From assembly GCA_964016885.1 (NCBI GenBank), contig OZ024746.1:56544001-56608000 (forward strand): DNA of 64,000 nucleotides. The letters are read 5' to 3'. Of this stretch, positions 19,123 through 56,668 are shown one piece after another. The DNA comes from Eledone cirrhosa. Its lineage: Eukaryota. A program made the translations under genes and the position numbers. The notes beneath the pieces were generated by a model. That model saw nothing but the letters and a program-made list of their open reading frames with translations. It ran no database searches and was not told where the DNA came from. Numbering within the stretch: the stretch's first letter is position 1; each line of letters starts with the position of its first letter.

Positions 19123-19761
19123 AAATCCTGGTCTGTTTATTAAATTTGGATTTTAAAAACCGTTTTTAATATCCAAATTTAATAAACAGACCAGAATTAT
19201 TTCATTCTGATTATTGAAAGCAACATTTTTTTGCTTTTAAGAAACCACTGGTAAATGGAATAATTGCCTTATGTTGTTTATTACATAACTATTAAGCTCT
19301 GTTACCTACATAGAGCACTCTTTTTTCCTGGACTTTTCCGACGGAATTACTTCATTTATATATATATATGTATATATATATATATATATATATATATATA
19401 TATATATATATATATATATATATCTAAGGAAAATGGATGAAATCGAAAATGCAACTGATGCCTTTTTTATAAAAATATATATTTATTTGGTACCTTTACC
19501 GGTTTCGCAGTTCTTCTGCTTTTCAAAATTAGAATTGAGATGGAGGGTTTGTGGTTTTCGTCACATATGTATATTTTCACCCATATATATATATATATAT
19601 ATATATATATATATATATATATGTGTGTGTGTGTGTGTGTGTGTGTGTGTGTGTAAGTGTGCGCGTGTATGTGTGTGTATCCGTGAGTGTATGTTGCCCT
19701 ATGTAAAATATACATGTGTGTGTGTGTGATTAATAGAGGTGTATATGAAATCATATTCATT

Positions 19762-19837
19762 TTCACCTGATGAGCTCAGTGATAATCGATCATGGCTTTG
19801 CAATCGATCTATCTCTTATTGAAACATGTGTCGTGAT
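19762..19837 (+). ncRNA. Type I hammerhead candidate
   Basis: UCAC-CUGAUGA-..AUCGAU/AUCGAU..-GAAAC-AUGU-GUC|GUGA. The base of stem II is weak. Confidence 0.65.
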
Positions 19838-19895
19838 TAAATGATTGGAATGTTACCTTGCCTTCGGATTGTCATTTTGATATATATATATATAT

Positions 19896-21468
19896 GGATG
19901 TGTATATAATGTATTTTGCAATACACTTTATGCTTAATTAAAAGCATTTTGAAGACCGTAAGCTATTGTTTTAAAGTAGTGACAAATTCACTCACTTTGA
20001 TCTCAGCAAACAGGGGAGATGAGCCGACATGACATGTTTCGCTTTTGTTGAAGCTTATCAAGGCCAACTACCCCGCCTGTCTACTGAGATCAATGATGTT
20101 ATATTCTTATAGAAATCTAGTAAATAATCAGGAGCTGATTATGCAGAGCGGTTGTTGGTCAGGCAGAAATTAAAAATTAGAATTGGAGCTCTGAAATAGC
20201 AATATATATATGGATGTATATATAATGTATATTGCAATACACTTTATGCTTAATTAAAAGCATTTTGGAGACCGTAAGCTATTGTTTTAAAGTAGTGACA
20301 AATTCACTCACTTTGATCTCAGCAAACAGGGGAGATAAGCCGACATGACATGTTTCGCTTTTGTTGAAGCTTATCAAGGCCAACTACCCCGCCTGTCTAC
20401 TGAGATCAATGATGTTATATTCTTATAGAAATCTAGTAAATAATCAGGAGCTGATTATGCAGAGCGGTTATTGGTCAGGCAGAAATTAAAAATTAGAATT
20501 GGAGCTCTGAAATAGCAATATATATATGGATGTATATATAATGTATATTGCAATACACTTTATGCTTAATTAAAAGCATTTTGGAGACCGTAAGCTATTG
20601 TTTTAAAGTAGTGACAAATTCACTCACTTTGATCTAAGCAAACAGGGGAGAAAAGCCGACATGACATGTTTCGCTTTATCTCCCCTGTTTGCTGAGATCA
20701 AAGTGAGTGAATTTGTGACTACTTTAAAACAATAGCTTACGGTCTTCAAAATGCTTTTAATTAAGCATAAAGTGTATTGCAAAATACATTATATATACAT
20801 CCATATATATATTGCTATTTCAGAGCTCCAATTCTAATTTTTAATTTCTGCCTGACCAACAACCGCTCTGCATAATCAGCTCCTGATTATTTACTAGATT
20901 TCTATAAGAATATAACATCATTGATCTCAGTAGACAGGCGGGGTAGTTGGCCTTGATAAGCTTCAACAAAAGCGAAACATGTCATGTCGGCTTATCTCCC
21001 CTGTTTGCTGAGATCAAAGTGAGTGAATTTGTCACTACTTTAAAACAATAGCTTACGGTCTTCAAAATGCTTTTAATTAAGCATAAAGTGTATTGCAAAA
21101 TACATTATATATACATCCATATATATATTGCTATTTCAGAGCTCCAATTCTAATTTTTAATTTCTGCCTGACCAACAACCGCTCTGCATAATCAGCTCCT
21201 GATTATTTACTAGATTTCTATAAGAATATAACATCATTGATCTCAGTAGACAGGCGGGGTAGTTGGCCTTGATAAGCTTCAACAAAAGCGAAACATGTAT
21301 GTCGCCTTATCTCCCCTGTTTGCTGAGATCAAAGTGAGTGAATTTGTCACTACTTTAAAACAATAGCTTACGGTCTTCAAAATGCTTTTAATTAAGCATA
21401 AAGTGTATTGCAAAATACATTATATATACATCCATATATATATTGCTATTTCAGAGCTCCAATTCTAA
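19896..21468. mobile_element. Palindromic array of 316-bp HHR monomers (about 2.5 copies minus, then about 2.5 copies plus)
   Basis: GGATG unit start at 19896, 20212, 20528. Strand switch near 20676. TA tracts on both sides. Confidence 0.92.
20921..21017 (+). ncRNA. Type I hammerhead with U3-A8 core; copies at 21237-21332 (+), 19997-20093 (-), 20313-20409 (-)
   Basis: GGCC-UUGAUAA-GCUU(caacaa)AAGC-GAAA-CAUGUCAU-GUC|GGCU, with outer helix UUGAUCUCAGUAGACAGG/CCUGUUUGCUGAGAUCAA. Confidence 0.85.
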
Positions 21469-54362: not shown

Positions 54363-54826
54363 TTAGTAGTGGTAGTAATAACAATATTAGTATTATTATC
54401 ATCATCATCATCATCATCATAATCATCCTCATCACTAGAATATCCATTATAGCCATCGTTGAGGCCGTTCTGACAATAAATCAATAACAGCCACTTGTCG
54501 CCACCAAAGACAATTTATTACGGAATAAAACATTGCATAAATGCTTTACATTCTGTTGATAACGTTTTAACCATAATCTGCTACTCCTCATACGACTATT
54601 TACCATTACCATCATTCTCAACGTCAAGTTCGCGTCATATTCCTCATTAAAGTCATCGTCATTATCATCAACTTGATCACCACCAACATATATATATATA
54701 TATATATATATATATATATATATATATATATATATATATATATATATATATATATATATATATAAAGAGTGCTCTATGTAGGTAACTGAGCTTAATAGTT
54801 ATGTAATAAACAACATAAGGCAATTA

Positions 54827-54887
54827 TTTCATTTACCAGTGGTTTCTTAAAAGCAAACAAATTTCGCTTTCAATCATCAGAATGAAA
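54827..54887 (-). ncRNA. Type I hammerhead, same family as 19063-19122
   Basis: Minus strand: UUUCAUU-CUGAUGA-stem II-GAAACCACUGGUA|AAUGAAA, in insert 54764-54925. Confidence 0.82.
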
Positions 54888-55670
54888 ATATCCTGGTGTA
54901 TTTATTGGCATTGGTTTTTAAAAACAAAAATATAATCTATATGAAACTGAGGCCGGAAAAAGGAAGAAGGAAAGGAAAAATAAACACACATGCAAACACA
55001 CACACACACAATTATACACATACACGTATATATAGACATACACACATACATACACACACGCATATACATACACACACACACATATATATGTGTATATATA
55101 TACATACACATACATATACACATACATACACACATAATTATCAACATATCAATACATACACATACATACAAATACACAAACGTGCATACACAGACACACA
55201 CACACATATACATGCATATATATATATATATATACATAAACATATATATACATACATACACACATACATACACACATATATACACGCATACATACGCATG
55301 CACAAATATAGAAACATGTACACACATCTACATACTCACACCCACAAATAAATATAAGAAAAAATATAATAATAAAAACACGGTCACATCAGAATAAAAA
55401 TGAATATAAAAATTATTAGTGTTGACAGCGATGCAGGCAACAAATAAATGAACAAACACACGTGGTAAGCAATACACACAATTGCACGTACACATACATA
55501 CGAAAAAATAAATACATACACACACTCTCAAACATACACATACATATACAAATACATATACACATACATACGCATACACATATACATATATACATACACA
55601 CACACACACATATACATATATACACAAACATACATATATATATATATATATATATATATATATATATATA

Positions 55671-56668
55671 TTAATATATGATAAACATTTACATGTTTTA
55701 ATTGCAAATGACTAATAAAATAGTTAGGATGAAATATCTTAATTCAAGTACATATAGTTTGCCTGTACGATCTAAAAAATAATAAATCAATACTCACAAA
55801 CCCATATGGGCAAAATGCCTTGGTACCTAGACACGTTTAAATTTCAAAATACAAACTTTTTCCGCAGATCGGTCAGAACTTCACACTTTAAACATGTTTC
55901 ACAAAAGATGGTATAATAGTGAAATAATTAATTAATTAGTAGTGAGTTAAGTAATTTTCTGTGTTTATCAATAGGTACCCAGATAAATTAAGTAATTTCA
56001 CCTCAGAAAAATCTCTAAGGTCTGGTTAACGTAGCGAAAATACACGAGGTTTTGCACACGACTTATTCCAGTCCTCTAACCTCCCACACATAGTGCTAGA
56101 AATAACAGCCGTTTATATGGGATTACAAATTCAGCTCGACTGCGGGAGCATTAATATAATATAACTTAGAGTTTACACTCAAAAAGGGTCATTTACAATT
56201 ATTTCAGCTCTAAGAATCGCTTCTGAGCAGTATAAATTAATATATGATAAACATTTTTCTGAGGTAAAGTTACTTAATTTATCTGGGTACCTATTGATAA
56301 ACACAGAAAATTAATTAACTCACTACTAATTAATTAATTATTTCACTATTATACCATCCTTTGTGAAACATGTTTAAAATTTGAAGTTCTGACCGATCTG
56401 CGGAAAAAGTTTGTATTTTGAAATTTAAACGTGTCTAGGTACCAGGGCCTTTTGCCCATATGAGTTTGTGAGTATTGATTTATTATTTTTTAGATCGTAC
56501 AGGCAAACTATATGTATTTGAATTAAGATATTTCATCCTAACTATTTTAATAGTCAATTGCAACTAAAACATGTAAATGTTTATCATATATTAATTTATA
56601 CTGCTCAGAAGCGATTCTTAGAGCTGAAATAATTGTAAATGACCCCATTGAGTGTAAACTCTAAGTTA
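55671..56668. mobile_element. About 565-bp monomer (minus, just over one copy) plus 413-bp inverted copy
   Basis: TTAATATATGATAAACATT at 55671 and about 56237. 56256-56668 is the reverse complement of unit sequence running across the monomer junction. (TA)n flanks. Confidence 0.85.
56285..56445 (+). ncRNA. Large type I hammerhead with U3-A8 core; minus copy at 55821-55980
   Basis: GGUACCUA-UUGAUAA-ACA..(long)..UGU-GAAA-CAUGUUUAAA..(long loop)..UUUAAACGU-GUC|UAGGUACC. 8-bp stem I and 11-bp stem III. Confidence 0.8.

What the first reader, a model, noticed from the sequence alone, without database searches (positions are those of the whole stretch)
19492..56445. U3-A8 catalytic-core variant recurs in four unrelated families
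Seen: UUGAUAA at 20953, 23595 (minus) and 56294, and UUGAAAA near 39977 (minus), each with different stems. Both positions change together in the intact copies. The variant is known but uncommon and is missed by CUGANGA searches. Inference: repeated compensatory change, perhaps favoured by AT bias, implies selection for cleavage.
Basis: partly seen in the sequence, partly recalled or inferred. Interest (0 to 1): 0.7.

Follow-up and report, generated by a model that had tools for sequence, protein, structure and literature searches.

The report
Repeated core swap in transposon hammerheads
Several jumping-gene families in this animal genome carry a predicted self-cutting RNA (hammerhead) whose key C-G pair is replaced by U-A, a variant already in print; comparisons between related families show the swap arose at least four separate times while no sampled family fixed a mismatched pair, which likely means that cutting matters for their spread.

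Summary
The four U3-A8 cores are real. They are type I hammerhead motifs of Penelope-like elements (PLEs) and retrozyme-like repeats, each fixed in a family of about 100 to 11,000 genomic copies. Three fit a strict descriptor; 56294 has only a 2-bp stem I.

The families are not all unrelated. 39983 and 23601 sit at the 3' ends of Neptune-type PLEs with 50-55% protein identity; whether they share one origin is unresolved. Repeated switching still holds. The 20953 and 56294 families each have C3-G8 relatives, and Hydra-clade PLEs need at least two more changes (single origin rejected, p-AU 0.003).

With one genome-wide pattern, U3A8 gave 19,455 matches, C3G8 10,983 and U3G8 604 (control 564). 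The 2,731 C3A8 matches are mostly a decoy. None of 28 multi-copy clusters has a C3A8 or U3G8 majority.

AT bias is not supported, and the variant is not uncommon here (24 of 92 sampled copies). U3-A8 was published for phage/bacterial-type hammerheads (2011) and Schistosoma PLEs (2014), and this scan noted it earlier on other DNA of this genome. Selection for cleavage is inferred; no activity was tested.

The parts
20949..20992 (+). Family A: canonical type I hammerhead motif with U3-A8 core, 4-bp stems I/II/III and GUC site, in a 316-nt non-coding tandem unit (retrozyme-like)
   Evidence: Rfam HH9 match E=3.8e-6, 30.4 bits, below gathering 52; 1,184 genome matches, first 100 listed all U3A8
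19890..21468 (.). Inverted two-armed array of family A units (cores at 20061-, 20377-, 20953+, and 21269+ with a broken stem III); ends approximate
39949..39988 (-). Family B: minimal type I hammerhead motif, U3-A8, palindromic 6-nt stem III, GUA site, in the 3' end of a Neptune-type PLE (element fragment 39795-40019)
   Evidence: 11,335 exact genome matches; linked to a 770-aa RT + GIY-YIG frame in L247
19493..19530 (-). Second family B copy: U3-A8 core kept, stem I decayed to 2 bp (element fragment 19354-19569)
23568..23605 (-). Family C: minimal type I hammerhead motif, U3-A8, same palindromic stem III and GUA site as B, 3' end of a second Neptune-type PLE (fragment 23433-23797)
   Evidence: 335 matches at <=1 mismatch, first 100 listed all U3A8; linked RT/EN in L255, L241, L242, L175
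24216..24661 (+). Opposite arm of the family C insertion; core at 24493 keeps U3-A8 but has lost A9
56292..56376 (+). Family D: atypical type I hammerhead motif, U3-A8, 64-nt stem II region, palindromic stem III, GUU site, stem I only 2 bp; 560-565-nt non-coding tandem unit
   Evidence: 105 matches at <=1 mismatch, of 100 listed 98 have A8 and 2 have G8, all U at position 3
55889..55973 (-). Second, inverted family D copy (whole D insertion 55665-56676, nested in the 3' region of a Hydra-clade PLE)
9292..10600 (.). 310-nt tandem repeat homologous to family A (61% over 285 columns) but with a C3-G8 hammerhead (cores 9475-, 9785-, 10095-, 10405-, 10544+): the in-window C3-G8 relative; ends approximate
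58314..58948 (-). Endonuclease end of a 5'-truncated Hydra-clade PLE; its hammerhead (54880-) is C3-G8 and is not one of the U3-A8 families

Best explanation
The four motifs are hammerhead-ribozyme cores carried by Penelope-like retrotransposons and their non-coding tandem derivatives, in which the C3-G8 pair has been replaced by U3-A8 in at least four separate lineages, likely because only a Watson-Crick pair at 3-8 keeps the RNA able to cut itself and only lineages that cut keep spreading. Shown here: the cores, their fixation in multi-copy families, the linkage of B and C to Neptune-type RT/EN frames, C3-G8 relatives for A and D, at least two changes in the Hydra clade, and the lack of mismatch families in the sample. 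From the literature: C3-G8 is a tertiary Watson-Crick pair of the active fold (PMC3884650), and covarying pairs are active in vitro (PMC3088659). Inferred: the switch runs through two transitions with a short-lived weaker intermediate (U3.G8 wobble or C3.A8) in a master lineage; B, C and D cut as dimers through their palindromic stem III; cleavage would release unit-length or circular RNA for reverse transcription by the PLE enzyme. U3-A8 is read as a tolerated alternative, not an advantage. Genomic copies decay neutrally after insertion, so copy numbers reflect amplification of a few masters and not the number of origins.
For: Same pattern, six core states, whole genome (matches / reversed-pattern control): U3A8 19,455/1,097; C3G8 10,983/175; U3G8 604/564; C3A8 2,731/329; G3C8 170/325; A3U8 624/768. 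About 65 of the first 100 C3A8 rows (counted by eye) are a decoy inside stem II of a C3G8 family; 16 of 18 held copies show an intact C3G8 core 14 nt upstream. 0 of 28 multi-copy clusters has a C3A8 or U3G8 majority (7 U3A8, 16 C3G8, 5 dropped as non-hammerhead background). Family A keeps U3A8 in 100 of 100 listed matches while stem II covaries; its U3A8 units are one side of a branch against two C3G8 relatives (98/97 with, 83/82 without the ribozyme columns). D is 64% identical over 490 columns to a C3G8 tandem family and aligns with a second one. Hydra EN tree: 2 changes forced by starred branches, one U3A8 clade rejected at p-AU 0.003; the starred sisters are an 848-match family with 99 of 100 listed U3A8 and a 175-match family with 98 of 100 listed C3G8. 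Neutral decay in copies: B has 36 C3A8, 23 U3G8 and 0 C3G8 against about 11,276 U3A8, with 0.07 doubles expected.
Against: No cleavage or expression data; no RNA run was listed. ViennaRNA gives the hammerhead stems high probability only for B (0.8-0.96); for A, C and D other folds win in the single strand. D has a 2-bp stem I, and its C3G8 relatives have an unpairable stem III and wobble-rich stem I, so that superfamily may be weak or inactive. The trees are short and unrooted. HHR-to-ORF links rest on proximity in few loci, and pLTR modules could be swapped between PLE families. B+C monophyly was not recovered: AU p=0.02 in a query-projected alignment and 0.07 de novo, with long decayed branches lying between them. 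One copy of a C3G8 family carries U3A8 (1 of 68), so double changes can appear in single copies. The genome-wide pattern sees only short stem II motifs with C11.1, and 19 of the first 100 U3A8 rows are a tandem repeat that I did not check. Loci used for clustering were largely fetched by family-specific patterns and are not a random sample.
Confidence: 0.72

Rival explanations
1. AT-biased mutation drives C3G8 to U3A8, with selection only filtering the end state.
For: The genome is AT-rich (window GC 0.32). Per copy, C>T plus G>A in a C3G8 family (71 against 8,206) exceeds T>C plus A>G in family B (59 against 11,276), odds 1.65, p=0.004. Only the transition-linked alternative is seen; G3C8 and A3U8 are at background.
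Against: Transversions are also higher in the C3G8 family (48 versus 52 on fewer copies), so family age explains part; the ts/tv ratios do not differ (p=0.35). Flank GC of 9 U3A8 and 30 C3G8 representatives is the same (0.358 versus 0.351, p=0.78). Several of the most AT-rich hammerheads keep C3G8. S. mansoni has the variant too.
Confidence: 0.2
2. One or two ancient origins, spread by descent and by exchange of pLTR or hammerhead modules among PLE families, so the recurrence is only apparent.
For: B and C are related (50-55% protein identity; 72.5% over 80 nt around the hammerhead, E=9e-4) and share stem III and cleavage triplet. All A subfamilies share U3A8 by descent.
Against: In A and D the U3A8 hammerhead lies in register with the C3G8 relative's hammerhead inside a unit that is homologous throughout. 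The stems of A, D, B/C and the Hydra U3A8 families share no detectable sequence (for A, D, B, C, c23). A single Hydra origin is rejected.
Confidence: 0.1
3. U3-A8 is favoured, not merely tolerated: it tunes cleavage to a slower or more dimer-dependent rate that lets more-than-unit precursors survive.
For: The largest single family counted is U3A8 (B, 11,335, against 8,206 for the C3G8 family). There are at least four gains. By analogy with the C3-G17 trap (PMC3884650), U3 could pair with A17, which 4 of 9 U3A8 families have (inference; counted by eye).
Against: C3G8 families outnumber U3A8 families 30 to 9 among representatives, and copies 68 to 24. A17 is no rarer or commoner in C3G8 families (19 of 30, by eye). 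Copy number depends on the RT and promoter.
Confidence: 0.12
4. The motifs are vestigial, or chance matches in an AT-rich genome.
For: 0 Rfam hits at gathering score in the window; D fails a strict descriptor; predicted single-strand folds of A, C and D are not the hammerhead.
Against: 0 such hits in 20 shuffles. Position in PLE 3' ends and tandem units. Stem II covariation in A. Pairing at 3-8 is kept across switches.
Confidence: 0.05

Closest known systems
U3-A8 min-HHR variant of Schistosoma mansoni Cercyon PLEs (Cervera and de la Pena 2014, PMC4209133; parts 1-2 of 4 read, supplements not read)
   Same: Same U3-A8 covariation in PLE pLTR hammerheads; about 1,300 hits against 2,000 there; minimal palindromic stem III; inverted pairs a few hundred bases apart.
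   Different: In the parts read, origins are not counted, the variant is not mapped on a tree, and mismatched cores are not counted. Here it occurs in Neptune-type and Hydra-clade PLEs and in retrozyme-like repeats of one genome.
Natural U3-A8 hammerheads of Perreault et al. 2011 (PMC3088659; passages read)
   Same: States that C3 and G8 covary to U3 and A8 in several natural examples and that such ribozymes had been shown active in vitro.
   Different: Treats core variants as rare; here the variant is about a quarter of sampled copies.
Metazoan non-LTR retrozymes (Cervera and de la Pena 2020, PMC7229834, part 2 of 6 and passages read; Li et al. 2026, 10.64898/2026.07.22.740005, part 1 of 5 and passages read)
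   Same: Families A (316 nt) and D (560-565 nt) are non-coding tandem units, GC under 50%, with one type I hammerhead per unit.
   Different: U3-A8 core ('C3U', 'G8A' and 'U3-A8' had 0 occurrences in the 2020 main text). D is longer than the 150-450 nt range given and has a non-canonical hammerhead. Circular RNA was not tested.
Neptune and Hydra clades of EN+ PLEs (Craig et al. 2021, PMC8557442; passages, section 11 and a keyword search of the one held supplement file read)
   Same: B and C: RT followed by linker and GIY-YIG, 3' hammerhead, (TA)n flanks. L162-type elements: RWK, DKT and CxCX5C motifs.
   Different: In the passages read the paper calls HHR function in EN+ PLEs unclear and describes searches with CUGANGA descriptors; core covariation did not appear in them.

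Membership tests
Type I hammerhead ribozyme | Core N3-UGA-N-N8-A, GAA, A15.1-U16.1, H17 in type I order | tested here: met
   All four motifs; family A matches Rfam HH9 at E=3.8e-6, below gathering
Type I hammerhead ribozyme | Watson-Crick pair between positions 3 and 8 | tested here: met
   U3-A8 in 100 of 100 listed for A and C, 98 of 100 for D, about 11,276 of 11,335 for B
Type I hammerhead ribozyme | Stems I and II of 3 or more base pairs | tested here: inconclusive
   Met for A, B, C; not met for D (stem I 2 bp); partition-function support only for B
Type I hammerhead ribozyme | Site-specific self-cleavage | not testable with these tools
   No assay possible
Neptune-type EN+ PLE (families B, C) | Single frame with RT and C-terminal GIY-YIG, GxKF and DKG motifs, CX2-5CxxC linker | tested here: met
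   L247 770-aa frame: Pfam RVT_1 E=5e-7 and GIY-YIG E=7.6e-5; motifs visible; C copies are frameshifted but carry the same motifs
Neptune-type EN+ PLE (families B, C) | Placement in Neptune rather than Nematis on a reference RT tree | not tested
   No reference PLE sequences were held; both clades have the linker; the label Neptune is from recall and motif fit
Hydra clade PLE (L162 type, L095, L119, L170) | RWK motif, DKT in place of DKG, CxCX5C linker | tested here: met
   All three in the 714-aa L162 frame as defined in PMC8557442 section 11; others by EN homology
Non-LTR retrozyme (families A, D) | Non-coding tandem unit with one type I hammerhead per unit | tested here: met
   A: 316-nt spacing in arrays; D: 560-565-nt spacing; no linked RT found for either in held loci
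Non-LTR retrozyme (families A, D) | Unit of 150-450 nt with canonical hammerhead | tested here: inconclusive
   Met for A apart from the core swap; not met for D (longer unit, 2-bp stem I), which works like a retrozyme but is not filed as a canonical member
Non-LTR retrozyme (families A, D) | Expressed as linear and circular RNA | not testable with these tools
   No RNA holder listed

The most novel reading that the evidence does not exclude
This genome is a natural evolution experiment on one tertiary base pair. Even hammerheads that look crippled (family D with a 2-bp stem I, and relatives without a pairable stem III) keep the 3-8 pair across an independent switch. They would therefore be cutting in vivo with outside help, in trans or chaperoned by the PLE protein, and U3-A8 may be a selected rate-tuning state rather than a neutral alternative.
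Probability: 0.15. Interest if true: 0.68.

Novelty: new member of a known kind. Interest (0 to 1): 0.36.

Why it matters
Whether PLE hammerheads matter to their elements or merely ride along is described as unclear (PMC8557442), and the minimal ones cut poorly in vitro (PMC4209133). Repeated paired switches at a tertiary pair needed only in the active fold, with no mismatch family in the sample, are comparative evidence that the catalytic fold is under selection. Natural sister pairs (A and its C3-G8 relatives; the two Hydra sisters) make this directly testable. In practice, CUGANGA-only searches would miss about a quarter of hammerhead copies here, including the largest family counted. The variant itself is not new.

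Tried and rejected
Rfam at gathering score found nothing in the window, and the 150 listed of 369 E-value hits were microsatellite artefacts with no hammerhead among them. The repeat finder was swamped by microsatellites.

An apparent C3A8 family of about 1,800 matches was rejected as a decoy inside stem II of a C3G8 family. A second apparent C3A8 repeat has no stems I or II and was rejected. Five multi-copy clusters with A3G8, A3A8 or G3U8 states were dropped as background after inspection.

A type III reading of family D was considered by eye and rejected, because the upstream triplet is not conserved among D copies. RT frames beside D in L212 and L238 belong to two different families and were rejected as D's partner. 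The window's endonuclease at 58314-58948 belongs to a C3G8 family.

B+C as one clade was not recovered, and the hammerheads of the two decayed elements that fall between them were not found, so that question is open.

No RNA holder was listed. Contigs of four coded runs showed no other letter at positions 3 or 8 at the 10% threshold; three of the four cover those positions, two of them by one contig each. This was not used as evidence.

Not held, so not read: Przybilski and Hammann 2007, Lunse et al. 2017, Martick and Scott 2006; they may hold rates for U3A8 and more natural cases. Literature searches. None listed a paper that counts origins of U3-A8, but the library lacks most subscription papers. 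Supplements of PMC4209133, PMC7229834 and the 2026 preprint were not seen, and the HHR file of PMC8557442 was searched only by keyword.
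Full report
Setting. The window is G000:C6:56544001-56608000 of a 3.0-Gb genome, GC 0.32, rich in (TA)n. It resembles cephalopod DNA by my recall; I did not test this.

Observation. The four heptamers are at the stated places. A descriptor free at positions 3 and 8 finds type I hammerhead motifs at 20953+, 23601- and 39983- with U3A8, further U3A8 copies at 20377- and 20061-, and several C3G8 motifs. 56294+ has the core, a long imperfect stem II, GAA, a palindromic stem III and a GUU site, but only a 2-bp stem I in all 29 held copies. At score 11 or more the window holds 5 U3A8, 6 C3G8 and 1 C3U8 hits; 20 dinucleotide shuffles hold none of these states. Rfam gives no hit at gathering score; motif A matches HH9 at E=3.8e-6 in a local scan.

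Family sizes. A (20953): 1,184 matches, first 100 listed all U3A8, with stem II covarying among subfamilies; 316-nt tandem arrays. B (39983): 11,335 exact matches. All 64 copies without U3 keep A8 (36 C, 16 G, 12 A) and all 47 without A8 keep U3 (23 G, 14 C, 10 U). No C3G8 copy is found, against 0.07 expected. C (23601): 335 matches at one mismatch, first 100 listed all U3A8. D (56294): 105 matches; of 100 listed, all have U at position 3, 98 have A8 and 2 have G8; 560-565-nt tandem unit. Inside a family the pair is inherited, and inserted copies decay one site at a time.

What carries them. B lies about 1 kb after a 770-aa frame with RT (Pfam RVT_1, E=5e-7) and GIY-YIG (E=7.6e-5) in L247, with an inverted copy upstream; L248 repeats the link. 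C follows a related, frameshifted frame in L255, L241, L242 and L175. B and C proteins are 49-55% identical, and their hammerhead regions align at 72.5% over 80 nt. They have GxKF, DKG and a CX4CxxC linker, which fits Neptune or Nematis; 'Neptune-type' is my label without reference sequences. So two of the four families are related. Their monophyly was not recovered: two decayed elements with no hammerhead found fall between them, with AU p=0.02 on a query-projected alignment and 0.07 on a de novo one, both with long-branch warnings. A and D are non-coding tandem units with no linked RT in the loci held.

Counting switches. A is homologous along its unit to two C3G8 repeats: L050/L315 (71% over 289 columns) and the window's own 310-nt repeat at about 9292-10600 (61% over 285). 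Of 85 units gathered, 70 had enough homology and 18 non-redundant ones were treed: 15 U3A8 units are one side of a branch (98/97). Without the ribozyme columns and with 4 rows with rearranged flanks left out, support is 83/82. D aligns in register with two C3G8 families, L110/L173 (64% over 490 columns) and L042. In Hydra-clade PLEs (RWK, DKT, CxCX5C in L162), 3 of 10 labelled endonuclease fragments are followed by U3A8 hammerheads. The tree needs 2 changes, forced by starred branches, and one U3A8 clade is rejected (p-AU 0.003); 7 unlabelled rows were left out of that test. The starred sisters are a family of 848 matches with 99 of 100 listed U3A8 and one of 175 with 98 of 100 listed C3G8. 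That is at least four changes seen between relatives, and a fifth inferred for B/C, which has no close C3G8 relative in my sample. The window's four families stand for three or four origins. The trees are unrooted; I take C3G8 as ancestral because it is the general consensus (PMC7151607 passage). Links by proximity and possible pLTR swapping are caveats.

One pattern (short stem II, C11.1, 6-nt stem III) was run for six core states, given as matches and reversed-pattern control: U3A8 19,455 and 1,097; C3G8 10,983 and 175; U3G8 604 and 564; C3A8 2,731 and 329; G3C8 170 and 325; A3U8 624 and 768. About 65 of the first 100 C3A8 rows (by eye) are a look-alike inside stem II of a C3G8 family, whose true core is intact in 16 of 18 held copies. 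The U3A8 total is dominated by B, and 19 of its first 100 rows are an unchecked tandem repeat. Clustering 399 distinct descriptor hits from 1.95 Mb of held loci plus the window gave 28 multi-copy clusters: 7 U3A8, 16 C3G8, 5 dropped as background, none C3A8 or U3G8; these loci are not a random sample. In 60 evenly spaced 10-kb stretches of contigs C1-C6 the strict descriptor found 14 C3G8, 4 U3A8, 1 C3A8 and 1 U3G8 (reversed control 2 hits). By homology to 39 hand-picked representatives (9 U3A8, 30 C3G8) it found 24 copies of U3A8 families (23 U3A8) and 68 of C3G8 families (64 C3G8, 2 C3A8, 1 A3G8, 1 U3A8). The test is not met, and the variant is about a quarter of copies.

AT bias. Flank GC is 0.358 for U3A8 and 0.351 for C3G8 representatives (p=0.78). 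In inserted copies, transitions at 3 and 8 number 71 against 8,206 intact copies in a C3G8 family and 59 against about 11,276 in B (p=0.004), but transversions are 48 and 52, and the ts/tv ratios do not differ (p=0.35). A mild bias is not excluded; it is not shown to drive the switch. The absence of G3C8 and A3U8 families can be explained by mutation supply alone: from these spectra I estimate about one such family for five or six U3A8 origins (my arithmetic).

Mechanism. C3-G8 is a Watson-Crick pair of the active fold (PMC3884650, passages); natural U3-A8 examples exist and covarying pairs are active in vitro (PMC3088659, passages). PLE minimal hammerheads are thought to work as dimers and cut weakly in vitro, and S. 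mansoni has about 1,300 U3-A8 motifs (PMC4209133). I infer that masters whose hammerhead keeps a paired 3-8 go on producing processed RNA for reverse transcription, while mismatched intermediates are short-lived. Against this: no activity or RNA data, single-strand folding supports the hammerhead stems only for B, and the D superfamily looks crippled.

Novelty. The variant, its PLE context and retrozymes are published, and this scan noted U3-A8 retrozymes, a Hydra-clade case and a sister-family swap on other DNA of this genome. Searches listed no paper with such a count, within a limited library.

Verdict. Real, largely known, modestly useful as comparative evidence for function. Interest 0.36.

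Noticed in passing
window 9292-10600: A 310-nt tandem repeat with a C3-G8 hammerhead is a relative of family A: a natural sister pair within one window.
   Followed up: yes
L110:2900-4100, L173:1840-2380, L042:1850-2280: C3-G8 relatives of family D (516-nt unit in L110) have a stem III that cannot self-pair (C15.2 opposite A16.2) and a wobble-rich stem I, yet keep the core.
   Followed up: partly
L247:3716-6025: A 770-codon open frame with RT and GIY-YIG, flanked by inverted family B hammerheads; family B looks young (about 0.5% change per core site).
   Followed up: partly
L064:1469: One copy of a C3-G8 family (3 other held copies C3G8) carries U3-A8: an old double mutant or an unsampled subfamily caught after the switch.
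   Followed up: no
window 39983-, 23601-; L170:3573; L095:1631: Four U3-A8 families have A17, which could pair with U3 as G17 is proposed to pair with C3; conversely U3-A8 cores might tolerate G17, which my descriptor excluded.
   Followed up: no
window 55665-56676 and L216: Family D is inserted in or beside the same Hydra-clade PLE family at two loci.
   Followed up: no
window 8601-8785: Fragment of another U3-A8 Hydra-clade element (L119 family) truncated at the hammerhead; the core is absent.
   Followed up: partly
G000:C1:7323020-9582254: A tandem repeat of about 2.2-2.3 kb spacing matches the generic U3A8 pattern; not checked for hammerhead stems.
   Followed up: no
window 3322-, 3805-, 4288-; 19115-/19207+; 40115+; 45097-/45285+; 54880-: Four further C3-G8 hammerhead families in the window (19207 has decayed to C3-U8); with the others the window holds 22 clustered hammerhead-like motifs in 64 kb.
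   Followed up: partly
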